The position numbers were made by a program, and so were the translations under genes. The notes beneath the pieces were generated by a model, which was not told the DNA's origin, ran no database searches, and saw only the letters and a program-made list of their open reading frames with translations. Below are positions 8,963 to 45,572 of a stretch of DNA of 64,000 nt, in pieces. Each line of letters opens with the position of its first letter. Position 1 is the stretch's first letter. The stretch is from Candidatus Heimdallarchaeota archaeon (lineage in GTDB: Archaea; Asgardarchaeota; Heimdallarchaeia; JABLTI01), in NCBI GenBank assembly GCA_018238155.1, contig JABCTZ010000006.1, positions 7,321-71,320 of the forward strand, given 5' to 3'.

Positions 8963-8976
8963 ATTCTTTTTCATTC

Positions 8977-13967: not shown

Positions 13968-13973
13968 TTCTTC

Positions 13974-15811: not shown

Positions 15812-15839
15812 AATAAAAAAAATAATTGGTGAAAATAAA

Positions 15840-29285: not shown

Positions 29286-30089
29286 TTAATTAACCTCCGG
29301 CTCTTTTAGTAAATTACGTATTCTCGTTGGCATAGCATATCCAAGATAAGCAAATGTGGACATTAGGATAGCAAATACCCAACCAAAATAATTAAAGACA
29401 GTATACCCTCTGCCAAATATCTCCTTGAAGAATAAAGGAAATATGAGGTCTAAAACGAACATAACATAAATCATTATACCTGAAAAACCATAAAGGATAA
29501 TGAAGGTAAAACCTGCTCGTTCCCATCTCAAAGTAGCCTCTTTTCTTTCTTTAAAACTAAGAGCTAAGAGTAATGTGAATGAAAAGAATGTTAAGAGCAA
29601 ATGGTATATTGTTTGAGCAATTGGATATTGGGGATTATATAGTTCGGTTGGATCTACAGCGTCCAAGCTTAAAGAAAGAGTATTAATAATTAAACCAATC
29701 GTAATTCCATTAAGAATTGCATTCACTAGTGGTATTGTTTTCTTGGTTCGTCTAAACATTGGTGCTTGAGAAAAGATTTGTGATATGAACAAAACCATAA
29801 ATATGTTACTTGCTGCAGAGAAAAGATAACCAAGGTTGATGCCATATCTTGCGTATTGTATTTCTCCTGCTAATTGTGGCATATTAATGTAATGTAAAAT
29901 AAAACCGAGAAATACTAAAATTCCACTTATCCCCCAGAAGAGGAAGGTTAATGCTAAAGTTAAAGCAGGTTCTTTTCTTCTATCAAAATATTTCATGAAA
30001 AGCATTATAACAACTGTAAATACAGCCAAAAGCACAAATCCTAATATAATTATTGATCCAAGTTTTGGATCTTGAGGTAAGTCTGCCAT
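29286..30089 (-). CDS. 7-TM membrane protein, paralog A of a tandem pair
   Basis: Seven hydrophobic helices. It shares motifs with paralog B (SQAPMFRRTK..LNGITIGL, LRWERAGFTFIIL, FAYLGYAMP). Confidence 0.7.
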   Translation of the reverse strand: MADLPQDPKLGSIIILGFVLLAVFTVVIMLFMKYFDRRKEPALTLALTFLFWGISGILVFLGFILHYINMPQLAGEIQYARYGINLGYLFSAASNIFMVLFISQIFSQAPMFRRTKKTIPLVNAILNGITIGLIINTLSLSLDAVDPTELYNPQYPIAQTIYHLLLTFFSFTLLLALSFKERKEATLRWERAGFTFIILYGFSGIMIYVMFVLDLIFPLFFKEIFGRGYTVFNYFGWVFAILMSTFAYLGYAMPTRIRNLLKEPEVN

Positions 30090-30104: not shown

Positions 30105-30560
30105 TTACCAGAGAGCATCCTTCATTTTGTCAATTGGTGACAATTCCTTCTGGTGCCACTCGATCATTTCTAGCATAGATTTCTTAAATTCAGATATTTT
30201 GACAATATCAAAATTATTTGGATCATAAACCTTCTCAAATTTTGTTGCTATTTCCTTAGCAACGCCTTCCCATTGAGATAATATTTTATCATCCATGGAT
30301 GTTTTAAAAACAAAAGTTACTGAAACTCCTTTTTCAGCACAAATTTGAGCTATTAGTTGATCATTTAGACCCAACTTGAAAATGCCTTTCTCAAGTTTCG
30401 TTGCAATGTCTTTTATTTGGTCAAGAAAGCCCATAAAAGTATCAGAATTTGGATCTATATCACCAATCTGAGTTGTAATTAAGGCTTCTCCACTATCTTT
30501 TGAGAAAATAATCGCGTTCTCGATCATAGTAGTTTTTTTCTCCATAAAATGGATAAACAT
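30105..30560 (-). CDS. Small soluble longin/roadblock-like protein (first gene of the 3-gene operon)
   Basis: The predicted secondary-structure order is beta-beta-alpha-beta-beta-beta-alpha (NAIIFSKDSGEALITT / DTFMGFLDQIKDIATKL / FKLGLNDQLIAQICAEKGVSVTFVF / ILSQWEGVAKEIATKFEKVY). The start may be Met6 (30545) or Met12 (30527). Confidence 0.55.
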   Translation of the reverse strand: MFIHFMEKKTTMIENAIIFSKDSGEALITTQIGDIDPNSDTFMGFLDQIKDIATKLEKGIFKLGLNDQLIAQICAEKGVSVTFVFKTSMDDKILSQWEGVAKEIATKFEKVYDPNNFDIVKISEFKKSMLEMIEWHQKELSPIDKMKDALW

Positions 30561-30707: not shown

Positions 30708-31799
30708 ATGAGTAAAAGTAGCGAGTTTCAGTATTATTCTGCACCTGGAAGAGTGTGCTTCTATGGTGAACATCAAGATTATCTAAAACTTAAGGTTGTT
30801 CCTGCTGCAATCAATCTTCGAACACTTATTGGGATTAAGGATAATGATCTAAAACGCATTCGAGTTAAATCACAAGATACAGCTTCTTCAGATGATTTCT
30901 CCATTTCAAAGAAAATATCTTTGGTAAAAAATGAATTTGATTACCTTCGAGCGATAATAATTTCTTTACAAAAGGAAGATTTAGTAGAAAATTTAACTGG
31001 ATTAGATGTTACTATCAGCAGCAGTTTGCCAATTGGATCGGGCTTATCCTCTTCGGCAGCATTATTGGTTGCTTGGACCACAGCACTCAATGATAGGTTC
31101 CAGTTAAATTTAAATAAAGAAGAAATCGCACTGTTGAGTTTCAAAGCAGAAAACAACATTCTTGGAGTGAATTGTGGTATTATGGATCAATATTCCTCTT
31201 CACTAGGAGGTATTATTGGTCTTGATTGTGATGGTCCACCATATAAGATTACTAAGCATTCAACTGCTTTTTCAAGTTTAGTTCTTGGAGATAGTTGTGT
31301 AAGACGTTCAGCAAATGAACCATTAACTATTTTGAAAAATCAATTATATTCTGGGATTAAAAATTTGCAAAAAGTTGTACCATTTAATTTGAAAGAAATT
31401 ACTTTTGAGGAGCTGACGAGATTGAAATCAACTTTAACACCAAATGAGCAAAAAAGGTTGCATGGTGCAATAGTTATTCGAGACATAACCAAAGAGGCTC
31501 AACGAAATTTGTCTAAGAAAAGCAACCTGAATTTGCCTTTATTGGGAGAATTATTAACAAAACAGCATGATGCTCTGAGAGATTTATTAGAAGTATCAAT
31601 TCCCATATTAGATAATATGGTTAATGCATCAATAAAAGCGGGAGCACTTGGAGCCAAGTTAACTGGAGCAGGATTTGGTGGTTGCATTGTAGCTCTTGCT
31701 CCTGGAAAAGAAAAAGAAGTTGCAGCAGCAATAGAACATTCCGGTGGAAAAGCAATAATTTGTCAAGTGGATTCCGAAGGTGGAAGAAAAGAGAAATAG
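30708..31799 (+). CDS. GHMP-family kinase (galactokinase-like signature)
   Basis: SAPGRVCFYGEHQDYL is the galactokinase-type GEH.DY motif, and the GHMP ATP loop is PIGSGLSSSAALLVA. I preferred the ATG at 30708 to the GTG at 30696. Confidence 0.8.
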   Translation: MSKSSEFQYYSAPGRVCFYGEHQDYLKLKVVPAAINLRTLIGIKDNDLKRIRVKSQDTASSDDFSISKKISLVKNEFDYLRAIIISLQKEDLVENLTGLDVTISSSLPIGSGLSSSAALLVAWTTALNDRFQLNLNKEEIALLSFKAENNILGVNCGIMDQYSSSLGGIIGLDCDGPPYKITKHSTAFSSLVLGDSCVRRSANEPLTILKNQLYSGIKNLQKVVPFNLKEITFEELTRLKSTLTPNEQKRLHGAIVIRDITKEAQRNLSKKSNLNLPLLGELLTKQHDALRDLLEVSIPILDNMVNASIKAGALGAKLTGAGFGGCIVALAPGKEKEVAAAIEHSGGKAIICQVDSEGGRKEK

Positions 31800-31827
31800 T
31801 AAAAGTAACCTATTTCTCCAATGAAGA

Positions 31828-34800
31828 TTATTTCCTTCCAACTATTCTTGGATTGATTTTTCCTTCTAGAATTAAGTATTCAATTTCTCTCTGAATTGTT
31901 TCAGGTGGGAAGTTCATTTGGGTTGAAATTTTGTTAATGTCAATATTTCCAATGTCTTGATAACCTAATGCAAGCTTCGCGACTTCACTTCTGAGTTGAA
32001 GATATGAATAGAGTACTGTTGTGTCTTTATTAAATACTGCCATAAACTTTTGTGGAATGTATTCGATACGAATTACGCTAAGAATTTCATCTAACCGTAA
32101 TTTTGTTTTATTAGCTAAATCTGCTACAATAGCTTTACCATTATCTAATAATTCTTTATCACACCAGTGCAATACTTCAGAAAGTATATCACTTGAAACA
32201 AAAAGACCAATTTTGAAGTACTTGCCTGTGATTTCTTTATGAGCATAAAGATCTTGAATTAGAACGTTGATTAAACGAGATATTGGTTGATTTTCTAAAT
32301 ATTCATAAATACTAATTCTTCCTCGCTCATAAATATCTGCTCGAACTTGTTCCTTATAGATATCAATGAATTCTTGGATATTCCTTTGGAATTTGATATT
32401 TACTAAGCTTGCTTGTTGTAGTGTGAGGGAAAGATTTCCTTCTTGAAGGGCAACCAAAGATTTCTTGAGTGCAATAAATGTCCTATTTTTCAAAACACGT
32501 TGGTCATTAATTTCTTCAATAATTGTTTGAATTGCTTTGAAATCCCAAATACGTAATTTCTTAAGTGAGGATCTGATTAGAAGATCTAAGAATAAGTTAA
32601 TGATTTTTGAATCAGTAGTCGCTTTAAGATATTTGAACATTAAGTCATCATAAATTTTGGTTTCTTCTATAAAACTACCAGTGCGTTCGTAAATATCTGT
32701 TGCAGCAAAAACATATGGAATTGAATGGAAGATAAGATCCTTCTTACCTGATTTAAGCATCTTTTTAGCTTGATCCAATGCTTGAAAGGCAAGGTCTTCT
32801 GCTTGTTCAATCATATTTCTATTGGCATAAACCATTCCGGGAACAAGATAACAGATATACCCATCTTCAATGGGTACAGTGTTGAAGAGATTCTGGATAG
32901 TTGTTGCTATGATTTTTATGCTCTTCTCATCTTGAGAGAGTTCATAATTTTCAAGAGAAGTTGAATAATAATATAATCCTTCTTTGAATTTGTCTTCTTT
33001 AATTTTCTGATCGCCAATACTTGCACTTATCATTGCTACATCAGCAATTAAACGATTATCACCAAAGATTTCATATATTCTTCCAGCAGCTTTCAGGAAA
33101 TTGATAGCGTCACTTAATTTATTTTTATCTGCTGCAAGTTGACCTAGAGCTATACAATGTTTTCCAAGGTCAATAATTCTGTCTCGTTGTCCAAAATTAT
33201 TCATTGCCGTTGCCAAAGTTTCCATTAGGACATCAAGACCTTTGAAACGTTTTTTCGTTAAACTTTCAAGTATAACTAATAATTCATCAATGATTGCAAT
33301 TCCAATTTGAGTTTGTTTGGATAGAGATGCTAATCGCAATGCTTGGTCTTCAATTCTTATTGCTTTATCGAAAGTAGTTGATTTTTGATGTAATAATTCA
33401 GCAGTCTGATGCCAAGCTATAATCATATTTGCATAATCCAAATTGCCAAGAATGGATAGAGGGTAATTTGAGTTGATAATTGAGCTGAGTAATTTGATGA
33501 TATTTTCTCTTGCAAAAATTACTAAGTCAACATTCTTTTCTTCAGATATATCTTGGTTTAATTGTATTAATGGAAATGCTACTACAGGATAGAACTCTTT
33601 TTCTGATAAGTTGATAACTAGATTGATAGTTGTACTTAGTAATTTCATACCATCTTTTCTAGTTGAAGATTCTAGGCAAAGAATCCTTCCAGTTTGAGCT
33701 AATGTGCCAATAAACTTTCTACTTTCTTTGATATCATTGACTTCTAGATAGATACTTCTTGCTTGATTTACTGTTGCATCAATTAAGTCAAATTTCTTAT
33801 TTTTAATTAAATAATTAACATGGTCTAAATAATTATTTGCAATATTAATCTTTAATTTAGAATTACTCGCTAAATCTGCTGCTGCATTTGCAGCATCTAA
33901 AATACCTCTGGCTATTCTTGGTCCACGTGAAATGAGTAATTTTTTACCATAATCAGTTAGTATTTTAGATAAATGTTCAAGACCTTTCTGATTTTTTGTT
34001 TGACTCAAGAATTTAGTTGTTGAATCAATAAATTGTTCAATAAGCTCTAATCGACTATCTTCATCTATTATGCTCTTTTCATATTGTGCTCCTATTACTT
34101 GTGAAATGGTTTCAAGATAGTTAGCTCCTGCTCGAGAGGTTTTTTCGAGTTTAGTTTCATATTGTACGATAAGCTCACCACCAGCATTCATAAATTGAAT
34201 GCCTAAAATTGGGTCTCCTTCTTTAATTAATTTCAAACCAAAATCAATGCATCTGTTTCCTACTTTTGGCAGATAATTGTTTAAACCTGCTCTAGTAGAA
34301 AGTTCCATTGCTTTTGAGAAATAGAGAGCCGCGATATCGAAATTCCGTTCATTGAGCATTTTACCTCCTTGGTTGATAAAGATTTCAGAGATCACCATGA
34401 TTCTTTCAGTTCGTTGAAGGAAGATATACAATCCACCGGCAAGCTCAACTAAAGGCATTCCAGTATTAATGTTATTATTATCAATTTGTTTTCGACCTTC
34501 AGCAATGAGTTCATTAACAATATCTAATGATTCTTTGGTTAAGTTCCCTTGAGCTAAGAGATGAACACCATTTCTAAATGCTTCAACTGCAGCTGCCATT
34601 TCATTTCTTTGCATAAGAGTTCGTCCTAAATCAATACTGATTTGACCGATACCTGTAAGATCATTTATTGTACGGAGGATGCCAATACCTGATGCAAGAA
34701 TAACATGAGATGCTTCGAGTTTTCCATCTTCTCTAAGAATGATACCTTGATTTCTACATACAGTAGCTAAGTGCTTAATTGAAGATTCATCCGAGATTTG

Positions 34801-37800
34801 AGCTATTTTCTCCATGCCCTTGTCAATTAATCGGCTACCACCAACATTTCTTCCATAAGAAATCAATAGAGCTGCTCCAACAAAACATTTCTCAACACCA
34901 CCTGTCATCTCTCCTTTAGCAAAGAGAGCATCAATTGCTGTGTTGATTAAATGGAATCCTTCTTTGGCTCTTTCAGCTTCAATGTAATTCTTTGCATGTG
35001 TGAGTAGCCTTTCAGTGCCGAGGAACAAATCATCAGCAGAAGTCATTGCTTCAAAGGCAATTGGTAACATTTTGAATGCTATGTCATATTCTCTTTTCTT
35101 CTGGAGGTCTGTGGCGATTTTAAATATAGAATTCGCTAGATGGATTAATCGATTATTCTTTCCGGTCCTTCTAAAGAGAGTAAAGCTTTCCTTGAATAAT
35201 TCTATAGATTTCTCATGATTTTTAATCTCATAAAATGTTTGACCTTCAATCATACAAAGACGGCCTGTGAATTCTTCGCCAACTATAGCACCAATAGTAA
35301 GTGCAACTTCCCATAATCGTAATCCAGCATCAGGATTATTACTTTTGATATTTGCAGTACCAAAAGCCATGACCTTAAGAGCAGTTTCTTCTACTTCTTT
35401 CATACGGTTATTTTGTTCCAGAATTTTAGCTATTTTTGCATAACAGAGAATGCTATTTTCAATACTATTTGCAGCCATCAATTGATCAACTAACTCTTCT
35501 AAAAATTGAATAGATTCATCCACACGTTTAATTTCAGTTAAGATTTCTGCTCCACGAATACCCCATGAAACAGCTACTTCGTTATTCTTTTGTTTGAGAA
35601 ACTCTTCACAAGTATTGATACAGATGCCCGCAGCTTCAATATCTTTATTCACGCTTCGAAGAATTTCAATTGTGAGATTAATGTAGTTTGTTGCTGGGAG
35701 GAGTTCACTTTCAACAATTAAATTACTTGAAATTATTGCTACTTCATTTGCAAGTTGACTAAGCTGTTTCAAATTTTGGGTTTGAATATATGCTTTGTAG
35801 GTTTTTTCTAAACTAATTAAAGCAGCATCATGTAGGTTTTCTTTTGAGAAAATTTGCCATTCTTTTAGTTTAATTTCTTCGTTAAGTTTTAAATCGTTAT
35901 TTTGTAAAGCAAAATTTTCAGCTAACTGAAAGAATTCTTGGCTTCTTGTTGACCTAACTCCTCTATCTAATTTTATTGAAGGAATAATACCTTGAACAAT
36001 TTCTGTTGCTATATCGATTATTTGGTTGATGAGTTTGGTTAATTTTTTATCTTTTTTTAGACTTAGAAAGATATCACCTGTTTCTCTGAATTTTACTAAC
36101 CCTTCTTCCAAATTATTATTTATAATATGATATTCGCCCATTGAATTTTGTATTTCAGCAATTGATGAAGGATCTTTTAAAATAACGTACAATTCTATTG
36201 CTTTGTCTAAAAGAACAAGACCAAATTGAGGTGTGTAGCTTTGAAGGAATTTTTCACCTTCAATTCTTGCTGTTTGAGCTCCTTGGACAGTTTTATCTGC
36301 TTTATTGAGAGCTTCTATACCTAGAGTTATCATGCTATTCGATTCAACAAGCTTGTCTTTTTTGAAGAGATCTCTTCCTTTTTCAATAATTTCAGCACCA
36401 ACTATAGCTGCGTGTCTAACTGATGAAGAAAGATACAAATCAATTGACTTTGAGTAATATTTTATCGAAAGACCAAATTGTTCTTTAGATAGAAATTCTT
36501 TTGCTGTTTCATATGAACGACCTGCTTCTGCCTCTGTGCTAACTGCTCCATCTATCTGAATGGCTACTTGAAATCCTTTTTCAGCGTTAACAAAATCACC
36601 TTTATTCAAGATGGTTGTAAATGTTTCAAAACAATGATTTGCTACACCCGGATAAATCTTACCTTTTTCGGGTATTTTATTCTTTACAGAAGCAAGAAGG
36701 TAATATTCCAAACTCTTTTCGTGATTATCATGTTCAGAATGATATCTTGCTAGTGCTGAAAGAATTCTTGCTGCTTCTTCCGGTTGATCCGCTTTCGTGA
36801 ATTCAACAGCTCCTTCCTCAAAAAGAGGGTCTGCATAATCAGTAAGATTCTTTCGCAAGAAATCAGCTGCAAAACTAACCATAATTCTAGCAGCTCGTTC
36901 ATATTCTCCTGCCTCTGAGAGTACTTTGCCACTCCCTCGAGCAGATGCAAGCGTGATATCATTTAGTTCTTCAATATTGAATTTTCTGATATTAGTTATA
37001 TGATCTTCAATAGTTTCTACTGCTGAATTGATATTTCGTTTAATTAAGGCTCTAGAGAGCGTTTCATTAAAATCACAAGCAGCACTCCATAATCCTTCTG
37101 CATTGATAATATCGCCATTTTTTATACACTGTTCTGAGTACTTCGTTGCCAACATCACTAATGGTTTGAATTTTTGTTCTTGGAGTTCTGCAGGAATTGT
37201 TTGAGCAGCAAGCTTTAATCGGTCTAATGCAGTATCAAAATGTCCTTCAACAAGTAGCTCATCTGCAAGCTTGAGGTAAACATCTGCTGCGTCTTCGTTT
37301 TTGCCTGCTTTTATATAAGCTTCAGCTGCTTTTGTTGCTAAATCAATGCCTGTCTGAAGATTTCTAACTTTAAACATTGGTTTCCACGAAGAATCAAAAG
37401 TATCTGCTGCTAGCTCTATTTCTCCTAATTCCATAAAGAAATCCGCACAAAGACGATACATTATTTCAGCATAATGGAAATCATTTTTATCAAAACGTTC
37501 TCGAGCGAGCTGTCGTATTTCACTGGGAATATCTACTCTTTCTTCGCTTTCAGGCAGTTCTTTTAATGGGTCAATCATTTTTTTGAAAGCTTCAGTTGCA
37601 AGTTGAAATTTGTTATATTTTAGTAGAAGCTCAGCTTCTTTCTTATAAACTAATACCTCAAAATTACGGTCAATTAATTTTCCAATTTCAATTGCAATAT
37701 TAAAATAATCTCTGCCAATTGGATACTGTTCTATTGTGTGAAGTTGTAATCCCATAGAAATAATACTATTTCCAAATTCGATGATATCATCTTTTTTACC

Positions 37801-38754
37801 AATTTCGATATAATATTCTTTGGCCATATTATAGTAGGGAATTGCTTCACTGTAAAGTTTCTTTTCAAAAATAGCTAATCCAATTAAAGCTAACTCACGT
37901 GCAAGAACGGTAATTGCGGGAATTGCATCACGAGAAATACAAATATCTTTTGCATGTTTGATTAAACGAACAGCAGTGCTATTTTCATACTGAACTGCAT
38001 CTGATTTTACAAGTATGTTTTCGGGGTCTAAAATCTCAGGGATTAAGGTTTCAATGTGCACGATAAAATTTTCCATTACCTTTTCAGCTGCCAAGATAAT
38101 AATTTCCTTATTATCAGGTTTCATTTCAAGAAGTAGCTTTACAGCTTCATCAAGAGCTTTATCTCCTTTTTCAGCTTGCTTCCCATCAAAATATTTTTGA
38201 GAGAGTGAGGTGTAGAAATCAATAGACCCAATTTCATAATCAGCTTTTTTATAAAGTGCTTTTGCTTTCTCTAAATACTCTTCCCCAATTTTTTCTTCCT
38301 CGGTTTTTACTTTTACTTTTAACAATATTTGGATGACATTTTCACTATATGCTTTTGCTGCCTCTAAGTATTTTTCTTTCGGATCTTTGCCGATTTTTTC
38401 ATATTGACTTGCAATTGTTTCATTTATTTTACCCACTAAATCATACCTGTTTTCTCTTGTCTGGAAAATTATGGCTGCTTTCTCTAAGAATTCTTCAGCA
38501 CTAGTTTGAAATGTTTCAAAATTCGAATAGTCCAATTTTTCACTAGCATCAATAAAATAATTAATCGTTTGAATCAATATTTTTGAATCATTTTTAATAA
38601 CTACTGCTTCAGCTATTTCCAGTAATAATCGAGATGCTTCTTCATGATTATCTTTCTCAATCAAAGTATGAATTAATCTAAAGAATTCATCCACTGCTGC
38701 TCTTGTTGAACCAGAATTTAGGAGATGGCGTGCTTTTTCAATATTCTCAAACAT
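31828..38754 (-). CDS. Giant (2308 aa) all-alpha SNAP/TPR-like solenoid protein with C-terminal winged-helix (PCI-like) modules
   Basis: Uninterrupted 6927-nt frame in AT-rich DNA. It shows repeated helical-hairpin periodicity (for example ATKAAEAYIKAGKNEDAADVYLKLADELL). The C-terminus is NIDINKISTQMNFPPETIQREIEYLILEGKINPRIVGRK. No TM, signal peptide or enzyme motif was seen. Confidence 0.85.
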   Translation of the reverse strand: MFENIEKARHLLNSGSTRAAVDEFFRLIHTLIEKDNHEEASRLLLEIAEAVVIKNDSKILIQTINYFIDASEKLDYSNFETFQTSAEEFLEKAAIIFQTRENRYDLVGKINETIASQYEKIGKDPKEKYLEAAKAYSENVIQILLKVKVKTEEEKIGEEYLEKAKALYKKADYEIGSIDFYTSLSQKYFDGKQAEKGDKALDEAVKLLLEMKPDNKEIIILAAEKVMENFIVHIETLIPEILDPENILVKSDAVQYENSTAVRLIKHAKDICISRDAIPAITVLARELALIGLAIFEKKLYSEAIPYYNMAKEYYIEIGKKDDIIEFGNSIISMGLQLHTIEQYPIGRDYFNIAIEIGKLIDRNFEVLVYKKEAELLLKYNKFQLATEAFKKMIDPLKELPESEERVDIPSEIRQLARERFDKNDFHYAEIMYRLCADFFMELGEIELAADTFDSSWKPMFKVRNLQTGIDLATKAAEAYIKAGKNEDAADVYLKLADELLVEGHFDTALDRLKLAAQTIPAELQEQKFKPLVMLATKYSEQCIKNGDIINAEGLWSAACDFNETLSRALIKRNINSAVETIEDHITNIRKFNIEELNDITLASARGSGKVLSEAGEYERAARIMVSFAADFLRKNLTDYADPLFEEGAVEFTKADQPEEAARILSALARYHSEHDNHEKSLEYYLLASVKNKIPEKGKIYPGVANHCFETFTTILNKGDFVNAEKGFQVAIQIDGAVSTEAEAGRSYETAKEFLSKEQFGLSIKYYSKSIDLYLSSSVRHAAIVGAEIIEKGRDLFKKDKLVESNSMITLGIEALNKADKTVQGAQTARIEGEKFLQSYTPQFGLVLLDKAIELYVILKDPSSIAEIQNSMGEYHIINNNLEEGLVKFRETGDIFLSLKKDKKLTKLINQIIDIATEIVQGIIPSIKLDRGVRSTRSQEFFQLAENFALQNNDLKLNEEIKLKEWQIFSKENLHDAALISLEKTYKAYIQTQNLKQLSQLANEVAIISSNLIVESELLPATNYINLTIEILRSVNKDIEAAGICINTCEEFLKQKNNEVAVSWGIRGAEILTEIKRVDESIQFLEELVDQLMAANSIENSILCYAKIAKILEQNNRMKEVEETALKVMAFGTANIKSNNPDAGLRLWEVALTIGAIVGEEFTGRLCMIEGQTFYEIKNHEKSIELFKESFTLFRRTGKNNRLIHLANSIFKIATDLQKKREYDIAFKMLPIAFEAMTSADDLFLGTERLLTHAKNYIEAERAKEGFHLINTAIDALFAKGEMTGGVEKCFVGAALLISYGRNVGGSRLIDKGMEKIAQISDESSIKHLATVCRNQGIILREDGKLEASHVILASGIGILRTINDLTGIGQISIDLGRTLMQRNEMAAAVEAFRNGVHLLAQGNLTKESLDIVNELIAEGRKQIDNNNINTGMPLVELAGGLYIFLQRTERIMVISEIFINQGGKMLNERNFDIAALYFSKAMELSTRAGLNNYLPKVGNRCIDFGLKLIKEGDPILGIQFMNAGGELIVQYETKLEKTSRAGANYLETISQVIGAQYEKSIIDEDSRLELIEQFIDSTTKFLSQTKNQKGLEHLSKILTDYGKKLLISRGPRIARGILDAANAAADLASNSKLKINIANNYLDHVNYLIKNKKFDLIDATVNQARSIYLEVNDIKESRKFIGTLAQTGRILCLESSTRKDGMKLLSTTINLVINLSEKEFYPVVAFPLIQLNQDISEEKNVDLVIFARENIIKLLSSIINSNYPLSILGNLDYANMIIAWHQTAELLHQKSTTFDKAIRIEDQALRLASLSKQTQIGIAIIDELLVILESLTKKRFKGLDVLMETLATAMNNFGQRDRIIDLGKHCIALGQLAADKNKLSDAINFLKAAGRIYEIFGDNRLIADVAMISASIGDQKIKEDKFKEGLYYYSTSLENYELSQDEKSIKIIATTIQNLFNTVPIEDGYICYLVPGMVYANRNMIEQAEDLAFQALDQAKKMLKSGKKDLIFHSIPYVFAATDIYERTGSFIEETKIYDDLMFKYLKATTDSKIINLFLDLLIRSSLKKLRIWDFKAIQTIIEEINDQRVLKNRTFIALKKSLVALQEGNLSLTLQQASLVNIKFQRNIQEFIDIYKEQVRADIYERGRISIYEYLENQPISRLINVLIQDLYAHKEITGKYFKIGLFVSSDILSEVLHWCDKELLDNGKAIVADLANKTKLRLDEILSVIRIEYIPQKFMAVFNKDTTVLYSYLQLRSEVAKLALGYQDIGNIDINKISTQMNFPPETIQREIEYLILEGKINPRIVGRK

Positions 38755-38993
38755 CGTTAGTTTTACAACCCATAAAGCCTATAGTATAGTTAGTATATGA
38801 TACTTAATATTACTTTTTTATTGATTATAGACTGTTTATGTTTTATATACTTGACTCTTGCCCAAATAAAAATTGTGTTAACGAAATTCTTCGAAGATTT
38901 AAGTGTCTTCAAATGGGCAAAGTAATTTCTTACAGTCAGTATTTATAAAAGATGAGTGTTTTATGTTATATAATTAAAATAGGTGAATACACA

Positions 38994-40370
38994 ATGGATT
39001 TATCAGTTAGTTTTCATGGGGCAGTAGCAAGAACAACAGGATCCGCCCATTTAATTCGAGCAGGTAATAAACGGCTTTTATTGGATTGTGGAATGATACA
39101 AGGGATACCTCACCATTATAATCGAAATTTTTCATTTGATCCAAAGTCCGTTGATGACATTATTTTATCACATGCACATGTTGACCATTCAGGTAGAATC
39201 CCTCTAATGTACAAACAGGGATTCGAAGGAAATGTCTATTGTACCGCAGCAACAAAAGATTTAGTGAAAGTTTTGCTTCTGGATGCAGTAAAAATTTCTC
39301 GGATAGAAATGAAGAAGGCTCGTTTCAGAGGTAGAAAAGCTTCTTTAAGCCCCTTATATGCAGAAGAAGATGTTTATAATGCCTTGAAGCATTTTATTAC
39401 TGTTCCTTATCATCAAGTTAAGAATATTGACAGAAAAATTTCCTTGAAATTTATTGATGCTGGACACATTCTTGGATCTGCACAAGTTATACTTGATTGT
39501 GATGGTACAATAATTACTTTTACCGGCGATTTAGGTCAAAATGGCATGCCATTGATTCGTAATCCTGATCCAATTAAGAAAACACACTATTTGATAACAG
39601 AATCAACATACGGAAATCGAATGCACACACCAATGGAAAAAGCAGCAAAAGCATTAATCAAATTTGCTAAGCATATTTACGCCGAAGGAGGAAAATTAAT
39701 CATCCCTGCTTTTGCAATTGGTAGAACACAAACATTGGTCTACTTTCTTAATGAAATATTTGAGAAAGGGGAAATCGATAAAATGCCAGTCTACATTGAT
39801 TCACCTATGGCTATAGATGCAACAAAAATTTATCTAAAACATCCTGAATGCTTTGATAAAGAAACTTTGAACCTACTAAAATCAGGCGATAACCCCTTGA
39901 TATTTCCTGAATTGTCCTTTTCAAAAACACATCGCGATTCAAGAAGTATATTAAAAGGATGGGAAACATGTGTTGTTTTTGCAGGATCCGGAATGTGCAC
40001 CGGAGGACGAATTTTGAGTCATTTAATTAATGAACTGCCTACAAGAAAGTCTATTGTTTTGATGGTAGGGTATCAAGCGAAAGGCACACTTGGACGAGAA
40101 ATCTTTGAAGGAGCTAAATCTGTGAAGATTTATAACAAAGAAATCAAAATTCGTGCAAAGATAAGATCTATTGGAGGTTTTAGTGCACATGCTGATCGAA
40201 AAGAATTAATTGATCACATAGCAAAAATTAGAAAGAAACCAGCAAAAACATTTGTAGTGCATGGAGAAGCACAGCAATCACTAACTTTTGCTGCAAACAT
40301 AAGAAATTCTTTACGAATTTGGGCGCGTGTACCTGAACATAAGAAAGAGTATCGTCTCAAACCCTTGTAA
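38994..40370 (+). CDS. Beta-CASP family metallo-beta-lactamase ribonuclease (aCPSF2/RNase J-like, no KH domains)
   Basis: HxHxDH (SHAHVDHSG), beta-CASP motifs (ESTYG; GFSAHAD; VHGE). A GGTGA motif sits 8 nt upstream of the ATG at 38994. Confidence 0.85.
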   Translation: MDLSVSFHGAVARTTGSAHLIRAGNKRLLLDCGMIQGIPHHYNRNFSFDPKSVDDIILSHAHVDHSGRIPLMYKQGFEGNVYCTAATKDLVKVLLLDAVKISRIEMKKARFRGRKASLSPLYAEEDVYNALKHFITVPYHQVKNIDRKISLKFIDAGHILGSAQVILDCDGTIITFTGDLGQNGMPLIRNPDPIKKTHYLITESTYGNRMHTPMEKAAKALIKFAKHIYAEGGKLIIPAFAIGRTQTLVYFLNEIFEKGEIDKMPVYIDSPMAIDATKIYLKHPECFDKETLNLLKSGDNPLIFPELSFSKTHRDSRSILKGWETCVVFAGSGMCTGGRILSHLINELPTRKSIVLMVGYQAKGTLGREIFEGAKSVKIYNKEIKIRAKIRSIGGFSAHADRKELIDHIAKIRKKPAKTFVVHGEAQQSLTFAANIRNSLRIWARVPEHKKEYRLKPL

Positions 40371-42244: not shown

Positions 42245-44446
42245 TTGAGCGACTATATACATACTATCAGCTTCAAAGTTCTCATAGACTCTGAAGTTGT
42301 AGACTTTACGTTTAGAGTTCCACGAGGAACACTGCTCATCCAAGTATTGGATGAACTCGAAACAACATTGAAAATTCAGCCAAGAGTAATTGCTACAGTA
42401 AATCATGATGGGGAAATAATGATTGTTGAAAACCATTATTCCACCATTGAGTATCTTATACAAAAATTTGGGACTGATTTTTATGCTGGTGGATCAAGTG
42501 TTGTGACATTCAATCATGGAGAATACATTGTTGATTTAGAAGTTCCAGAAGCAATTCCATTTGCTTCATCCTTTAGAACAGCGAGCAAAAGCTTCTCAAT
42601 ATTACCAAGAGATGTCTCTATTGAGAGACAAGATGGTCAAGTAATGGACTATGAAATATTTCGTTTGCCCACTGCTTTTGTGCTAAATTCTTGGGGAAAT
42701 TTTTATCGAATAGTTGATCGCGAATTGGGTGATCCTTTAATAGATCCACCAAAAGTGGACGGAGAAGTATCCTCTCTAGATTCAAATCAAACTTATGAAG
42801 AAAGAACAGAATCAGAACAAACTTCAATGGTCTACCCACCGAAATTTGATGGTTCGGAATCAACAGATACTGTTTCAGAGGTATCGGAATTAGATATTTT
42901 GACTGAACATTTTGTTGAATCCTCCTTACATGAAGATGATCAAGAAGAATCCGATTCTGAACATGTTGAGAGAACTTCTCCTTGGCAAAAAACGGAAGAC
43001 GAGGAGCCCTCTTCAAGTTCAATTGAGCTTGAAGAAGAACCAACAATTGAATCATTGATGGATGAAATCCTCCTTGAAAGTAAAACAGATCAAAACGATG
43101 ATGACGTCGACGGAGAATTTCTAACTCAAGCAATTGAAGAACCATTGGCAGATTCTGTTGTTACAGATGTTTCACAGTTTGATGAGGAATCTGATGACAT
43201 TCCCCTAAGTGAAGTGATTGATTTTGGCGATGAAATAGATGCTTTAGAGGATGAAACAATTATTGATGAGACGGAAGAAGAAGATGCTTCAGAAATCCCT
43301 GCTCAAGATATTTATGAAGTATCAGTCCTCGAGGAAAATGGTTCAGAAGAACAAATTTTTGATGAATTTGTTGATGAAACAGAAGAAATAGCTGCTGATC
43401 TTCCAATTGAAGAAACTTCTTCAACATTTGAGGAAATGATTACAACTTCTTTTACAGAAGAGAAAGAAGAACCTGAAGAGGAAGAAGAATCTGAGGAAGA
43501 AACATTTGTTTCTCAACCATTTGATGACGAGCAATTTATTGAATCCATCAAAGATCATTATGTTGCAGAAGATTCACGCGATGAAATACTAACATCCACA
43601 GCTGAAACAGAAATAATTGAAGATGGTGTTGAAGAAGAATTAGAGAATGAACCTCAAGCATTAGATGATTTGACGGGAGATTTGGTTGTTGAATCTGAAG
43701 ATATTTTCGAATCTGTTGTCAAAGACATCGATGAAGCAATTGAACAATCTGAAATTACTCCTATTCTGAAGGATTTACCTTTAGATCAAAGACTGGAGAT
43801 TAGAAAACAAGAGCTAGTTTCTCTTGAAAAAACTTTGAGTGAAGAAGAGAAACTAAAAGTGAAGATACAACAAAGAATGATTTCCATTGATTATTACGAA
43901 AAAATGAATCCACGAAAAGTATATTCTATATCCGTGAAAATTTCACCTACTCTTTCAACTAAACAAAATGAACATAATATTAAACTGAAGATTGTACCAA
44001 TATTTCCAGGTTGCTATGTAACACCTCACCAAGAGATTGTTGAAATAAATGGTGAAAGTGATATTGATGTAGAATTTACTGTAACACCTCTAATTAGCCA
44101 AGGAACGGTCAACGGAAAACTTGGCATTTGGTATAAAGGAAGGAATATTCTTAATATTAATACTACTTCAAAAATAAGGAATTATTCGGGTTGCATTGTT
44201 AGTAGTATATTGGCATTTCTATTTGGAATAATGCCTTTTCTATTTTTAATATTTAATTTTAATTTTAACAATGCTTTAGCAACAGGATTAAATAACATCT
44301 TTTCAACTACATTGACAGCTAATCTGTTTGTGATTTTTGAAATAATTTTGCTAGTAATTTTTCTTGGTCTAATGGTTGGGTTCATTTTCGTAGGGAAACC
44401 AACCAAACGAAAAATAAAACGCAAATTTTATCCTGTAGCTCCTTGA
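42245..44446 (+). CDS. Membrane-anchored protein with a structured N-terminal domain, a ~370-aa extremely acidic low-complexity region, a beta-sandwich-like domain and C-terminal TM helices
   Basis: 733-aa ORF with a TTG start as given in the track. A long D/E/S/T-rich stretch runs roughly aa 175-545. The C-terminus has three hydrophobic helices (IVSSILAFLFGIMPFLFLIF...; FVIFEIILLVIFLGLMVGFIFV). Confidence 0.65.
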   Translation: MSDYIHTISFKVLIDSEVVDFTFRVPRGTLLIQVLDELETTLKIQPRVIATVNHDGEIMIVENHYSTIEYLIQKFGTDFYAGGSSVVTFNHGEYIVDLEVPEAIPFASSFRTASKSFSILPRDVSIERQDGQVMDYEIFRLPTAFVLNSWGNFYRIVDRELGDPLIDPPKVDGEVSSLDSNQTYEERTESEQTSMVYPPKFDGSESTDTVSEVSELDILTEHFVESSLHEDDQEESDSEHVERTSPWQKTEDEEPSSSSIELEEEPTIESLMDEILLESKTDQNDDDVDGEFLTQAIEEPLADSVVTDVSQFDEESDDIPLSEVIDFGDEIDALEDETIIDETEEEDASEIPAQDIYEVSVLEENGSEEQIFDEFVDETEEIAADLPIEETSSTFEEMITTSFTEEKEEPEEEEESEEETFVSQPFDDEQFIESIKDHYVAEDSRDEILTSTAETEIIEDGVEEELENEPQALDDLTGDLVVESEDIFESVVKDIDEAIEQSEITPILKDLPLDQRLEIRKQELVSLEKTLSEEEKLKVKIQQRMISIDYYEKMNPRKVYSISVKISPTLSTKQNEHNIKLKIVPIFPGCYVTPHQEIVEINGESDIDVEFTVTPLISQGTVNGKLGIWYKGRNILNINTTSKIRNYSGCIVSSILAFLFGIMPFLFLIFNFNFNNALATGLNNIFSTTLTANLFVIFEIILLVIFLGLMVGFIFVGKPTKRKIKRKFYPVAP

Positions 44447-44547: not shown

Positions 44548-44766
44548 ATGAATGATTTCAACGCATTCCTTGGTCCAAAAGGTTTACTAGCATTTGCCAT
44601 TATTTTTCTAATTTTAGGAATAGCCGCGTTCGCATGGTTGTTCATGTATCAAGAAGCAGACCCAGATAGAACATTTCGTGGTTCAGTAGCCCGAGCATTT
44701 TCTGCATCAATGTTTATGGGATTTTCAGTTTTCCTCTTTGTTGTCTGGAGTGGCGCAATAGCATAA
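44548..44766 (+). CDS. Small 2-TM membrane protein
   Basis: 72 aa with two hydrophobic helices. A GAAGGAG motif lies upstream of the ATG. Confidence 0.55.
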   Translation: MNDFNAFLGPKGLLAFAIIFLILGIAAFAWLFMYQEADPDRTFRGSVARAFSASMFMGFSVFLFVVWSGAIA

Positions 44767-44825: not shown

Positions 44826-45572
44826 TCAATGATATTTAACATTTGAGCAATTGCTCTTAGATTTAATATTGAGCGTTTCAAAGAGCATTGAACCAATATC
44901 TATGAACAATAGGCTATTAATTAACAGTGGTTCTTCTTTTAGCATTACTCTAGTAGCTTCTGCAACTTGTAGGCTACCAATTAACTGAATTATACTTGGA
45001 TGAATACCTGTAATAGATGAAACTGGAAGTGTTTTATCATCAACATGACCAAATAAGCATTCAATACAAGTACTACCTCGAACAACAGTCATTGCATTCC
45101 CAGTTAAACCACTAACTGCACCAAAGAGGAAAGGTAAATCTTTTTCTAAACACTTTTTATTTATTGCAAATCTTGGTGTGAATCTATCTAAGGCATCAAT
45201 AACAAAATCTACATTATCAGTCACAAGTTCAACATTTTTAGTAGTAATCTCTTCCTGAATGATTTTAATTTCAACATCAGGATTAAGATATTCTAAGAAT
45301 TTTTTAGCTGCTTGTACTTTGGATTTGCCTACATCCTTTTCACGGTAAAGCATTTGTCTTTGCAAATTTGATAATTCAACGACATCTTTGTCAATTAATC
45401 GCAAGTAACCTACTCCTAAAGCAGTAAGTTGAGTAGCAGTAACAGAACCTAGACCTCCTGCTCCAACAATAGAGACTCTAGCTCTTCGTATTTTTTTCAT
45501 ACCCTCAACACCAATTGACGGGAGAACAATAAAACGAGAATATCTGCCTGTAGTCAAGTCCTTTTCGTTCAA
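44826..45572 (-). CDS. ThiF/MoeB/UBA-type E1-like adenylyltransferase
   Basis: RYSRFIVLPSIGVEGMKKI, Rossmann loop VGAGGLGS, LIDKDVVELSNLQRQ, and a single CxxC (CIEC). Confidence 0.85.
   Translation of the reverse strand: MNEKDLTTGRYSRFIVLPSIGVEGMKKIRRARVSIVGAGGLGSVTATQLTALGVGYLRLIDKDVVELSNLQRQMLYREKDVGKSKVQAAKKFLEYLNPDVEIKIIQEEITTKNVELVTDNVDFVIDALDRFTPRFAINKKCLEKDLPFLFGAVSGLTGNAMTVVRGSTCIECLFGHVDDKTLPVSSITGIHPSIIQLIGSLQVAEATRVMLKEEPLLINSLLFIDIGSMLFETLNIKSKSNCSNVKYH

What the first reader, a model, noticed from the sequence alone, without database searches (positions are those of the whole stretch)
31828..38754. Single 6.9-kb ORF encodes a 2308-aa helical solenoid capped by a PCI-like winged helix
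Stop codons are frequent in non-coding frames of this AT-rich genome, so a 6927-nt uninterrupted frame must be a real gene. It is by far the largest gene in the window.

Read by eye, the protein is one continuous array of degenerate two-helix repeats. Their A/Y/L periodicity is that of SNAP-type/TPR hairpins, for example ATKAAEAYIKAGKNEDAADVYLKLADELL, EGAVEFTKADQPEEAARILSALARYH and YAKIAKILEQNNRMKEVEETALKVM. I saw no TM segment, signal peptide, P-loop or catalytic motif.

The last ~40 aa (NIDINKISTQMNFPPETIQREIEYLILEGKINPRIVGRK) read like the winged-helix subdomain that closes PCI domains in proteasome-lid, COP9 and eIF3 subunits. A second WH-like segment (AIVADLANKTKLRLDEILSVIR) lies about 60 aa upstream.

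Solenoid plus WH is the PCI architecture, but here the solenoid is several-fold longer than in any canonical PCI subunit. That suggests a giant scaffold or assembly platform.

The gene appears to be its own transcription unit. It diverges from a beta-CASP RNase gene and converges on a GHMP kinase gene.
Basis: partly seen in the sequence, partly recalled or inferred. Interest (0 to 1): 0.8.

Follow-up and report, generated by a model that had tools for sequence, protein, structure and literature searches.

The report
Giant helical scaffold with UFL1-like tail
This is a real, conserved 2308-residue gene of a Heimdall-group (Asgard) archaeon that encodes one long helical-repeat scaffold ending in three small winged-helix modules most like those of the eukaryotic UFM1 ligase UFL1, and it lies close to a UFM1-like gene, so it may bear on how that eukaryotic protein-tagging system arose.

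Summary
The ORF at 31828-38754 (-) is intact. It has full-length orthologues of 2306-2334 aa (46-87% identity) in about 20 Heimdallarchaeota/Asgard MAGs, and no related genome shows it split.

AlphaFold2 models give an unbroken all-alpha array of about 20-residue helix-turn units for residues 750-2144. Profile self-comparison extends the repeat to the N-terminus.

The C-terminus carries three tandem winged helices, not one plus a hint. Pfam PCI stays below threshold, so it is not a canonical PCI subunit. The best matches are the PCI-like winged-helix repeats of UFL1:
- Foldseek top hit is the UFL1-DDRGK1 chimera 8B9X (E 1e-4).
- Pfam E3_UFM1_ligase gives collinear near-threshold hits.
- hhalign gives 83-85% probability.

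New findings:
- Each genome carries a second, collinear paralogue of 2303-2304 aa at 16-18% identity.
- The window's gene lies 3.5 kb from a membrane protein with a UFM1-like domain and 6 kb from a ThiF-type E1.

Most likely it is a non-enzymatic cytosolic assembly platform that docks through its winged-helix tail. A role in a proto-UFM1 system is possible but unproven.

The parts
31828..38754 (-). Complete gene, 2308 codons plus stop. It encodes a 261 kDa, pI 5.5 soluble protein (clade A of a two-paralogue family).
38755..38951 (.). 197-bp AT-rich divergent intergenic region shared with the beta-CASP gene. It is the presumed promoter region; this is inferred from gene orientation only.
32323..38754 (-). 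Residues 1-2144: continuous alpha-solenoid of helix-turn-helix repeats (helices of about 17-20 aa, turns of about 3 aa, hairpin of about 40 aa). Seventy helices are modelled in residues 750-2144. Residues 1-749 are not modelled but are related to the modelled repeats by profile self-comparison.
   Evidence: DSSP; pLDDT 85.7 and 91.9; hhalign window matrix, probabilities up to 95%
34075..35457 (-). Residues ~1100-1560: the most conserved stretch of the solenoid (majority-residue frequency 0.73-0.87 among clade-A orthologues). It is the presumed principal ligand-binding surface (inference).
35068..35241 (-). Residues 1172-1229: the only Pfam match above its gathering score (TPR_12).
32194..32397 (-). 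Residues 2120-2187: winged helix 1 (linker helix H1, short strand, recognition-type helix, beta-hairpin GKYFKIGLFVS).
   Evidence: elements H171-195, E197-199, H210-222, E228-231, E235-238 of the model that starts at residue 1950
32005..32193 (-). Residues 2188-2250: winged helix 2. It contains AIVADLANKTKLRLDEILSVIR.
31831..32004 (-). Residues 2251-2308: winged helix 3. It contains IDINKISTQMNFPPETIQREIEYLILEGKINPRIVGRK. The protein ends just after one short strand, so the wing is incomplete.
42245..44446 (+). Context, a possible partner by inference only. This 733-aa conserved neighbour has an N-terminal ~165-aa domain whose second half is UFM1-like, then a long acidic linker and a C-terminal membrane anchor.
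44826..45572 (-). Context: a 248-aa ThiF-family E1-like adenylyltransferase. It is closest to ThiF/MoeB and not specifically to UBA5.

Best explanation
The gene encodes a cytosolic, non-enzymatic assembly platform.

Shown:
- About 2140 residues form one uninterrupted TPR/SNAP-like alpha-solenoid of roughly 53-55 helical hairpins.
- The last ~190 residues form three tandem PCI-like winged helices. Their closest known relative is the WH1-WH3 array of the eukaryotic UFM1 E3 scaffold UFL1.
- The protein has an equally long, collinear paralogue in the same genomes.

Inferred:
- The solenoid's strongly conserved central part (residues ~1100-1560) binds partner proteins or peptides, as TPR scaffolds such as Ski3, Ctr9 and LGN do.
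- The winged-helix tail is the docking module. It would dock as in UFL1-DDRGK1 and in PCI complexes, where winged helices pair with other winged helices or hold an E2/UBL.
- The near-fixed length across orthologues (2306-2334 aa) and in the paralogue (2303-2304 aa at 16-18% identity) suggests that the number of repeats, and so the overall geometry, is under selection, as in a spacer or a defined superhelix.
- Likely docking partners are the clade-B paralogue (heterodimer) and/or the neighbouring UFM1-like membrane protein.
For: Gene reality and selection.

All-alpha solenoid:
- AlphaFold2 of residues 750-1949 has pLDDT 85.7 and 59 helices.
- AlphaFold2 of residues 1950-2308 has pLDDT 91.9.
- Internal repeat similarity reaches 95% hhalign probability across residues 2-1680 and 1802-2041.
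- Foldseek neighbours of the solenoid are Ski3 (E 1e-10), IFT-A TPR subunits, Ctr9 and LGN. TPR_12 is above its cutoff.

Winged-helix tail:
- DSSP shows three helix/strand winged-helix units.
- The Foldseek PDB top hit is the UFL1-DDRGK1 chimera 8B9X (E 1e-4, probability 1.0, 251 of 255 target residues). PCI subunits follow at E >= 1.4e-3.
- Pfam E3_UFM1_ligase matched 5 of 17 family C-termini. The best E-value is 3.2e-5. One shown hit scores 22.7 bits against a cutoff of 23.2 and aligns residues 61-267 of the 269-aa C-terminal segment to profile positions 21-227.
- hhalign of the family C-terminus against a 44-sequence UFL1 alignment gives probability 83-85%, E 6-9e-6, 182-184 collinear columns, matching human UFL1 45-237.
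- Controls for that comparison: reversed 18.5; column shuffles 15.8 +/- 2.4; 15-column block shuffles 20.5 +/- 3.7 (maximum 28.9); real score 47.1. The 17 solenoid windows score <= 17.2; the two C-terminal windows score 25.5 and 29.4.
- Clade A alone and clade B alone each recover the same register.

Paralogue pair: five MAGs share locus-tag prefixes for one clade-A and one clade-B protein. A and B are 16-18% identical with only a few small indels. Their C-termini match at 99% probability.

No enzyme, defence or RNA signal.
Against: - No partner has been shown. The scaffold role is inferred from fold class and from the absence of catalytic domains.
- The UFL1 relationship is not significant by sequence-to-profile methods. 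The exhaustive search of 1.84e9 representatives with the C-terminal profile found only 10 family members and no UFL1. The profile against PDB did not list UFL1. My own UFL1 HMM gives at most 12 bits on single family sequences.
- hhalign with either clade alone gives only 17-20% probability.
- Foldseek TM-scores are low (0.29-0.39, rmsd 11 A) because the inter-domain angles differ.
- The global shape of the solenoid is uncertain (pTM 0.44).
- Residues 1-749 were not modelled.
Confidence: 0.6

Rival explanations
1. Proto-UFMylation scaffold. The winged-helix tail works like UFL1's. It would hold the neighbouring UFM1-like protein, or a charged carrier, and position it on a target, with the ThiF-type E1 nearby. 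That would make this a Heimdallarchaeial forerunner of the UFM1 E3 machinery.
For: - UFL1 is the best match of the tail by three methods.
- The 733-aa gene 3.5 kb upstream (42245-44446) has a UFM1-like domain. All 13 PDB hits of its profile are UFM1 chains, although E is only 0.18-0.26. hhalign against human UFM1 gives 83-88% probability and E 3-9e-6, and the reversed control gives 0%. Pfam Ufm1 scores E 0.046 in one orthologue.
- That gene sits upstream of the giant gene in 12 of the related loci held.
- A ThiF-family E1 lies 380 bp beyond it, and a 77-aa ubiquitin-like protein ending in GG lies 8.4 kb on the other side.
- Literature: Ufm1 homologues are reported in nine Asgard clades (PMC12962969). 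UFL1 and DDRGK1 are said to 'originate in Asgard archaea' (PMC10183829).
Against: - No UFC1/E2 or UfSP protease was found among the window ORFs scanned.
- The ThiF is closest to ThiF/MoeB, not UBA5.
- The genes are not an operon. GT22 and beta-CASP genes lie between them, on mixed strands. Synteny is conserved only within one lineage, where general collinearity could explain it.
- The UFL1 elements needed for ligase activity (the N-terminal UFC1-binding helix and the partial winged helix completed by DDRGK1; PMC9627666) have no counterpart here. The array is C-terminal and preceded by the solenoid.
- The UFM1-like domain is internal to a membrane protein, and its Gly is not conserved in the most divergent orthologue.
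- The clade-B paralogue has unrelated neighbours.
Confidence: 0.2
2. Canonical PCI-domain subunit. The solenoid plus terminal winged helix would be a PCI domain that assembles with other PCI/MPN subunits into a lid/CSN/eIF3-like horseshoe.
For: - Foldseek lists Rpn, CSN and eIF3a PCI subunits at E 1.4e-3 to 4e-2 with probability 0.7-1.0.
- Weak PF01399 hits cover the last winged helix in 6 of 17 homologues.
- Two paralogues exist, as PCI assemblies require.
Against: - PF01399 is never above its cutoff (best ~15 bits against 22) and is absent in the window protein.
- There are three winged helices instead of one, and no C-terminal helix for a helical bundle.
- Only two paralogues were found in an exhaustive search, against six PCI subunits in known complexes.
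- No MPN protein was found among the window ORFs scanned.
- UFL1 outranks PCI in Pfam, Foldseek and hhalign.
Confidence: 0.08
3. RNA-metabolism scaffold analogous to Ski3. The solenoid would organise an RNA-decay or RNA-processing machine together with the divergently transcribed beta-CASP ribonuclease, with the winged helices touching RNA or the ribosome.
For: - The top Foldseek hits of the solenoid are Ski3 in Ski2-3-8 and ribosome-bound SKI complexes (E 1e-10 to 1e-7).
- The divergent beta-CASP neighbour is retained in every clade-A locus examined, including the most divergent orthologue at 47% identity, where the GHMP kinase neighbour is lost.
- The segment before WH1, and WH1 and WH3 themselves, are mildly basic (pI 8.2-9.7) in an otherwise acidic protein.
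Against: - The Ski3 similarity is generic to long TPR arrays (TM 0.11-0.15), and Ctr9, IFT-A and LGN score similarly.
- The clade-B paralogue has no RNase neighbour.
- No helicase or WD40 partner is encoded nearby.
Confidence: 0.1
4. Membrane-coat-like or trafficking scaffold. The alpha-solenoid would work with a separate beta-propeller protein, in the protocoatomer/BBSome/IFT style.
For: - The clade-B paralogue is immediately preceded on the same strand, in all three loci examined, by a ~719-aa FG-GAP beta-propeller with weak BBS2/BBS7/ITFG2-like hits plus a zinc ribbon.
- IFT-A TPR subunits are among the top structural neighbours of the solenoid.
Against: - The window's clade-A gene has no propeller neighbour, and its 733-aa neighbour is unrelated to the propeller protein.
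- The BBS-type hits are below Pfam cutoffs.
- The solenoid similarity is generic.
Confidence: 0.06

Closest known systems
UFL1 (E3 UFM1-protein ligase 1) N-terminal tandem winged-helix array, with DDRGK1/UFBP1 (PF09743; PDB 8B9X, 8OHD)
   Same: Both have three consecutive PCI-like winged helices with a period of about 62 residues, each led by a long helix that forms a helical backbone. The family's tail aligns collinearly with human UFL1 residues ~45-237 (WH1-WH3). UFL1 is the best match in Pfam, in Foldseek/PDB and by profile-profile comparison. As in some UFL1/UFBP1 winged helices, a beta-strand is missing from a wing (PMC9627666).
   Different: - The array is at the C-terminus of a 2100-residue solenoid instead of at the N-terminus.
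- There is no UFC1-binding N-terminal helix and no partial winged helix completed by a DDRGK1-like partner.
- There are only three winged helices, not five plus a partial one.
- There is no UFL1 C-terminal region.
- Sequence-to-profile scores sit at or below Pfam's cutoff.
PCI-domain subunits of the 26S proteasome lid, COP9 signalosome and eIF3 (PF01399)
   Same: Both have a TPR-like helical repeat stack running directly into a winged helix of the same sub-class. They are structural neighbours at Foldseek E 1e-3 to 4e-2.
   Different: - The solenoid is about 5-10 times longer.
- There are three winged helices, not one.
- There is no C-terminal bundle helix.
- PF01399 is below its cutoff.
- Only two paralogues exist, and no MPN partner was seen.
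Long eukaryotic TPR scaffolds: Ski3/TTC37, Ctr9, IFT-A TPR subunits, LGN/Pins
   Same: All are uninterrupted arrays of antiparallel helix pairs that act as non-enzymatic platforms. They are the top Foldseek neighbours of residues 750-1949 (E 1e-10 to 1e-5).
   Different: The similarity is generic (TM <= 0.36, mostly ~0.1). Those proteins lack a winged-helix tail. The repeat here is about 40 residues rather than the canonical 34.
alpha/gamma-SNAP (Sec17; PF14938)
   Same: Both have a twisted sheet of ~18-20-residue helical hairpins. Sec17 aligns to the last helical segment over 197 columns at 4.8 A (TM 0.47 on the target). gamma-SNAP is the second-best PDB sequence match of the N-terminus (E 0.024). 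Faint PF14938 hits are recorded for several orthologues.
   Different: SNAPs are ~290-aa proteins with a C-terminal globular bundle that bind SNARE complexes and NSF. None of these features is present or testable here. PF14938 does not match the window protein.

Membership tests
TPR-like alpha-solenoid (Pfam TPR clan) | At least one TPR-clan profile above its gathering score | tested here: met
   TPR_12 scores 34.8 bits against a cutoff of 30.1, in 3 stretches, the best at residues 1172-1229.
TPR-like alpha-solenoid (Pfam TPR clan) | Tandem antiparallel helix pairs forming a continuous superhelix | tested here: met
   AlphaFold2 DSSP shows 70 helices of about 17-20 aa with about 3-aa turns over residues 750-2144. 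The repeat self-similarity matrix supports this. Residues 1-749 are inferred only.
PCI domain (PF01399) | Profile match above the gathering score (22 bits) | tested here: not met
   No hit in the window protein at E <= 10. The best homologue hits have E 0.023-0.37 and score 11.5-15.3 bits.
PCI domain (PF01399) | Helical-repeat subdomain followed by a single terminal winged helix | tested here: not met
   A helical stack is present, but it is followed by three tandem winged helices with linker helices.
PCI domain (PF01399) | Fold similarity to solved PCI subunits | tested here: inconclusive
   Rpn, CSN and eIF3a chains appear at Foldseek E 1.4e-3 to 4e-2 with TM 0.16-0.35, ranked below UFL1-DDRGK1.
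PCI domain (PF01399) | Assembly with other PCI and MPN subunits into a horseshoe plus helical bundle | not testable with these tools
   Only one paralogue was found, and no MPN gene was found among the window ORFs scanned. No multimer modelling was available.
UFL1 / E3_UFM1_ligase (PF09743) | Profile match above the gathering score (23.2 bits) | tested here: inconclusive
   No hit in the window protein. Five of 17 family C-termini match. The best E-value is 3.2e-5 (bits not shown). The hits shown score 18.8-22.7 bits, just under the cutoff, and are long and collinear. Clade B has none.
UFL1 / E3_UFM1_ligase (PF09743) | Tandem PCI-like winged-helix repeats on a helical backbone | tested here: met
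   The AlphaFold2 model shows them. The Foldseek top hit is 8B9X at E 1e-4. hhalign gives 83-85% probability over 182-184 columns, with controls.
UFL1 / E3_UFM1_ligase (PF09743) | N-terminal UFC1-binding helix plus a partial winged helix completed by DDRGK1/UFBP1 (the minimal ligase module; PMC9627666) | tested here: not met
   The array is C-terminal and is preceded by the solenoid. The alignment starts at UFL1 residue ~45, after that module.
UFL1 / E3_UFM1_ligase (PF09743) | UFL1 C-terminal region (the C-terminal helix stack, 'CTR' of PMC9627666; probably the Pfam families PF25041/PF23659 seen in full-length UFL1s) | tested here: not met
   No such Pfam hits. The protein ends 12 residues after the last helix of WH3.
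UFL1 / E3_UFM1_ligase (PF09743) | Operates with UFM1, UBA5 and UFC1 | tested here: inconclusive
   A UFM1-like-domain protein and a generic ThiF E1 are neighbours. No UFC1 or UfSP was found in the window. The rest of the genome was not examined.
SNAP (PF14938) | Profile match, and a ~290-aa protein with a nine-helix sheet plus a globular C-terminal bundle | tested here: not met
   No PF14938 hit in the window protein; only faint precomputed hits in orthologues. The local fold resembles Sec17, but the size and architecture differ.

The most novel reading that the evidence does not exclude
The two giant paralogues form a Heimdallarchaeial complex that is an ancestral relative of the UFL1-DDRGK1 scaffold. 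Its UFL1-type winged-helix tails would engage the neighbouring membrane-anchored, UFM1-like-domain protein, possibly after activation by the adjacent ThiF-type E1. This would be a pre-eukaryotic, membrane-linked UFM1-like system organised on a 0.5-MDa solenoid platform, and it would place the origin of UFMylation components in one conserved archaeal gene neighbourhood.
Probability: 0.15. Interest if true: 0.85.

Novelty: new variant of a known kind. Interest (0 to 1): 0.6.

Why it matters
Heimdallarchaeia are among the closest known archaeal relatives of eukaryotes. The origin of eukaryotic ubiquitin-like systems is an open question.

Published work states that Asgard archaea have Ufm1 homologues (PMC12962969). 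[quoted passage not shown] Neither paper describes the archaeal proteins or their context.

Here a concrete, conserved candidate is defined:
- a 261-kDa solenoid with a UFL1-type triple winged-helix tail;
- a same-length paralogue in the same genomes;
- a position next to a UFM1-like-domain membrane protein and an E1-like enzyme.

That turns a vague phylogenetic statement into a testable set of pairwise interactions.

Even if the UFM1 link fails, the family is unusual. A pair of 2300-residue repeat proteins has kept its length to within a few residues at 16-18% identity, which implies selection on overall geometry. All public records examined annotate the family only as 'hypothetical' or 'TPR repeat protein'.

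Tried and rejected
- NCBIfam: only noise (E >= 0.018 against cutoffs of 70-750 bits).
- PADLOC defence models: nothing, so it is not a recognised defence protein.
- Rfam on 31000-39500: nothing.
- PDB sequence searches with the full-length and C-terminal profiles: nothing significant, and neither UFL1 nor PCI listed.
- Exhaustive HMMER search of 1.84e9 representatives with the C-terminal profile: only 10 family representatives, so no bridge sequences to UFL1.
- hhalign against a single UFL1 sequence: 4% probability. A family alignment was needed.
- My own UFL1 HMM against single family members: <= 12 bits, although usually in the right place and register.
- A database search with a UFL1 profile, meant to find archaeal UFL1-like proteins, listed only the top 120 hits, all eukaryotic. 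It was uninformative.
- Test of whether the 733-aa clade-A neighbour and the clade-B FG-GAP propeller neighbour are paralogues, which would imply a duplicated two-gene module: no similarity. Rejected.
- Test of whether the ThiF neighbour is UBA5-like: ThiF/MoeB score higher (E 3e-31 against 3e-23). Not specifically UBA5.
- Search for E2/UFC1, UfSP, MPN or DDRGK among ORFs of >= 100 aa (59 of the 60 listed, plus one 77-aa ORF): none found.
- The three small genes beyond the GHMP kinase (151, 267 and 265 aa) have no Pfam hits. Two are paralogous multi-pass membrane proteins. No link to the giant gene was established.
- Supplements of PMC12962969 are not held as text. The appendix of PMC10183829 gives no protein identities.
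- Assembly or frameshift artefact: rejected, because intact orthologues exist in independent assemblies.

Full report
**1. The observation**

The ORF at 31828-38754 on the minus strand is 2308 codons with an ATG start. It is the largest in the window; the next largest is 733 aa. The five other frames of the same stretch contain 106-282 stop codons, and no open run exceeds 78 codons. At the window's composition (33.4% GC), an open frame of this length has a chance probability of about 1e-79.

A protein search found 22 close relatives at 47-85% identity. Seventeen are full length at 2306-2334 aa. All come from MAGs labelled Heimdallarchaeota or Asgard, apart from labels such as 'Bathyarchaeia' on MAGs that may be misassigned. 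A scan of one genome per GTDB species found 13 loci, all in Heimdallarchaeota/'Promethearchaeati' MAGs. The match runs uninterrupted over residues 1-2306/2307 wherever the contig is long enough. The gene is therefore real and under purifying selection, and it is never split.

The flanks are as described. A beta-CASP/RMMBL nuclease gene lies 197 bp away on the opposite strand (divergent). A GHMP kinase gene ends 28 bp from the giant gene's stop codon (convergent).

**2. Anatomy of the solenoid**

- Pfam finds only TPR_12 above threshold, at residues 1172-1229. NCBIfam, PADLOC and Rfam give nothing.
- The protein is 261 kDa with pI 5.5 and has no transmembrane-grade hydrophobic segment.
- AlphaFold2 with a 20-sequence alignment models residues 750-1949 at mean pLDDT 85.7. 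The model has 59 helices of about 17-20 residues joined by about 3-residue turns, with no strand and only a few short breaks.
- Residues 1950-2308 are modelled at pLDDT 91.9. Eleven further helices reach residue 2144.
An all-against-all hhalign of 120-residue profile windows shows they are related to the modelled repeats, with probabilities up to 95%. Only windows 1682-1801 and 2042-2308 stand apart.
- Foldseek neighbours of the solenoid are long eukaryotic TPR scaffolds: Ski3 (E 1e-10), IFT-A subunits, Ctr9, central-pair proteins and LGN/Pins. TM-scores are low, as expected for flexible superhelices.
- Conservation peaks at residues ~1100-1500.

The 'continuous array of degenerate two-helix repeats' is confirmed.

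**3. Anatomy of the tail**

The model shows three winged helices, not one or two:
- WH1 at residues 2120-2187;
- WH2 at 2188-2250, which contains AIVADLANKTKLRLDEILSVIR;

Each begins with a long linker helix. The chain ends after only a short strand following the last helix of WH3.

**4. What the tail resembles**

*PCI.* PF01399 is absent from the window protein. It appears only below threshold in 6 of 17 homologues (best shown hits E 0.023-0.047, about 15 bits against a cutoff of 22).

*UFL1.* The best Pfam family is instead E3_UFM1_ligase (PF09743), the N-terminal winged-helix array of UFL1.
- Five of 17 members match, and the best E-value is 3.2e-5.
- One shown hit scores 22.7 bits against a cutoff of 23.2. 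It aligns residues 61-267 of the 269-aa C-terminal segment to profile positions 21-227.
- Foldseek against the PDB ranks the UFL1-DDRGK1 chimera 8B9X first (E 1e-4, probability 1.0, 251 of 255 residues aligned). Proteasome-lid, CSN and eIF3a PCI subunits, Sec17 and SelB follow at E 1e-3 to 4e-2.

*Profile-profile test.* I recalled the human UFL1 N-terminus from memory and verified it as 100% identical to PDB 8OHD chain A. I then collected UFL1 homologues and ran hhalign.
- With 24 family C-termini against 44 UFL1 sequences, the probability is 83-85%, E 6-9e-6, over 182-184 collinear columns. These match human UFL1 45-237, that is WH1-WH3.
- Controls: the reversed alignment scores 18.5; 100 column shuffles score 15.8 +/- 2.4; 100 block shuffles score 20.5 +/- 3.7 (maximum 28.9). 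The real score is 47.1. The 17 solenoid windows of the same protein score <= 17.2, while the two C-terminal windows score 25.5 and 29.4.
- Each paralogue clade alone recovers the same register, but with only 17-20% probability.

*Against.* Sequence-to-profile methods do not connect the families.

My reading is that the tail belongs to the PCI-like winged-helix class, and within it is probably (about 65-70%) closest to UFL1/DDRGK1. Peter et al. describe the UFL1/UFBP1 winged helices as 'PCI-like' and note missing wing strands (PMC9627666).

The protein is not a UFL1 orthologue. It lacks the UFC1-binding helix, the partial winged helix completed by DDRGK1, WH4-5 and the C-terminal region, and its array is at the opposite end of the protein.

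**5. A paralogue**

The 'remote' hits (P0023, P0027 and P0030-32, 2303-2304 aa when complete) are not orthologues from other lineages. NCBI locus-tag prefixes show that five MAGs (KGD59, EAX90, GF308, U9O98, ACFFDW) each encode one clade-A protein (the window's type) and one clade-B protein.
- Identity is 46-65% within the compared clade-A set (up to 85-87% for the closest relatives) and 39-54% within clade B.
- A and B are 16-18% identical, yet they align end to end with only a handful of small indels.
- Their tails match at 99% hhalign probability.
- An exhaustive search found no third group.

An ancient duplicate kept at the same length suggests constraint on overall geometry, and perhaps a heteromeric pair. 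This is untested.

**6. Genomic context**

*Clade A.* Clade-A loci share the order ThiF - Ost5-like - unknown 650-1000-aa protein - GT22 (Alg9-like) - beta-CASP <> GIANT. The usual continuation is GHMP kinase, three small genes, PRTase, CGI-121 and THUMP, and further on a 77-aa ubiquitin-like gene. The beta-CASP neighbour persists even in the most divergent orthologue, where the GHMP kinase is gone.

*The UFM1 lead.* I had noted that the UFL1 lead predicts UFM1-system genes nearby. The 'unknown' protein (window 42245-44446, 733 aa) has three parts: a conserved ~165-residue N-terminal domain, an acidic linker, and a C-terminal membrane anchor.
- The profile of the N-terminal domain hits only UFM1 chains in the PDB: 13 of 13 hits, though with E 0.18-0.26.
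- hhalign against human UFM1 gives 83-88% probability and E 3-9e-6 over 61 columns at 26% identity. The reversed control gives 0%.
- One orthologue has a weak Pfam Ufm1 hit.
- The gene is present upstream of the giant gene in 12 related loci.

*Limits of the lead.* The adjacent ThiF is a generic E1-like enzyme, closer to ThiF/MoeB than to UBA5. No E2/UFC1 or UfSP was found among the window ORFs scanned. The genes are on mixed strands with unrelated genes between them. Synteny within one lineage is weak evidence of functional linkage.

*Clade B.* Clade B has different neighbours. Notably, a ~719-aa FG-GAP beta-propeller with sub-threshold BBS2/BBS7/ITFG2-like hits lies directly upstream on the same strand in all three loci examined.

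**7. Mechanism**

*Shown:* a giant non-enzymatic solenoid with a triple winged-helix tail, conserved, and duplicated.

*Inferred:* it is an assembly platform. The conserved central repeats bind partners, and the winged-helix tail docks onto another winged-helix protein (the paralogue) or a ubiquitin-like/E2-type partner. This mirrors how UFL1-DDRGK1 and PCI complexes use this winged-helix class.

The specific proto-UFM1 reading gets about 15-20%. An RNA-processing scaffold with the beta-CASP nuclease gets about 10%. A canonical PCI subunit gets about 8%. A coat-like role with a propeller partner gets about 6%.

**8. Novelty**

All database records examined call the protein 'hypothetical' or 'TPR repeat protein'. 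Literature searches found no description of it.
- Koestlbacher et al. report Asgard Ufm1 homologues, some with partial or multiple hit regions (PMC12962969). The 733-aa neighbour fits that description.

The domain kinds are known. The architecture, the paralogue pair and the neighbourhood are not described. I classify this as a new variant of a known kind.

Noticed in passing
window 42245-44446 (+): This 733-aa protein is conserved upstream of the giant gene in 12 related loci. Its N-terminal ~165 aa look like two beta-grasp units. The second (residues ~98-161) matches UFM1: every PDB profile hit is UFM1, and hhalign gives 83-88%. A conserved Leu-Gly-Asp follows where UFM1 has its C-terminal Val-Gly. 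The rest is a long acidic low-complexity linker, a conserved PIFPGCYVTP region and two C-terminal hydrophobic helices. It is probably one of the Asgard 'Ufm1 homologues' of PMC12962969.
   Followed up: partly
window 44826-45572 (-), 44548-44766 (+), 46258-47025 (-): Just beyond the UFM1-like gene lie a ThiF-family E1-like protein (248 aa, PF00899 E 1e-67, closest to E. coli ThiF/MoeB and not UBA5), a 72-aa two-TM ORF orthologous to a weak Ost5 hit in L001, and a PAC2 proteasome-assembly-chaperone family protein. The order is conserved in L001 and L017.
   Followed up: partly
window 23212-23445 (-): A 77-aa ubiquitin-family protein (PF00240 E 1.4e-13) whose sequence ends exactly in Gly-Gly (…RTEGG), so it is already in mature form. 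It lies 8.4 kb from the giant gene and is conserved in the same relative position in L001 and L017.
   Followed up: partly
L003:7697-9856, L018:5715-7874, L019:5058-7214 (all +), upstream of the clade-B paralogue: A ~719-aa protein with an FG-GAP beta-propeller and sub-threshold hits to BBS2_Mid, BBS7/BBS1 propellers and ITFG2, plus a zinc-ribbon/FYVE-like segment. It is always co-directional with the clade-B giant gene and 126-144 bp from it; in one locus a glyoxalase gene is inserted between them. Together they form a separate beta-propeller plus alpha-solenoid pair.
   Followed up: partly
L003, L018, L019 (clade-B genes at 10001-16915, 8001-14915, 8001-14912); not in the window: Every genome with the window's gene also has a collinear paralogue (2303-2304 aa where complete) at 16-18% identity. 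Length is preserved to within a few residues across an ancient duplication.
   Followed up: yes
window 28487-29284 (-), 29286-30089 (-), 30105-30560 (-): Two adjacent paralogous multi-pass membrane proteins (265 and 267 aa) and a 151-aa soluble protein. None has a Pfam hit, and all are conserved next to the GHMP kinase gene in L001 and L002. Their function is unknown.
   Followed up: no
window 40384-42144 (-): An Alg9-like GT22 mannosyltransferase (PF03901 E 1.5e-44) sits between the beta-CASP gene and the UFM1-like gene. With the Ost5-like ORF, this is a small eukaryote-type N-glycosylation flavour in the same neighbourhood.
   Followed up: no
window 984-1325 (-), 5284-6192 (+), 10680-11432 (+): A NAC-domain protein with a HYPK-type UBA domain, and two ordinary short TPR proteins (302 and 250 aa) with strong canonical TPR_1/TPR_2 hits. 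The contrast shows that the giant protein's repeats are far more divergent from the 34-residue TPR consensus.
   Followed up: no
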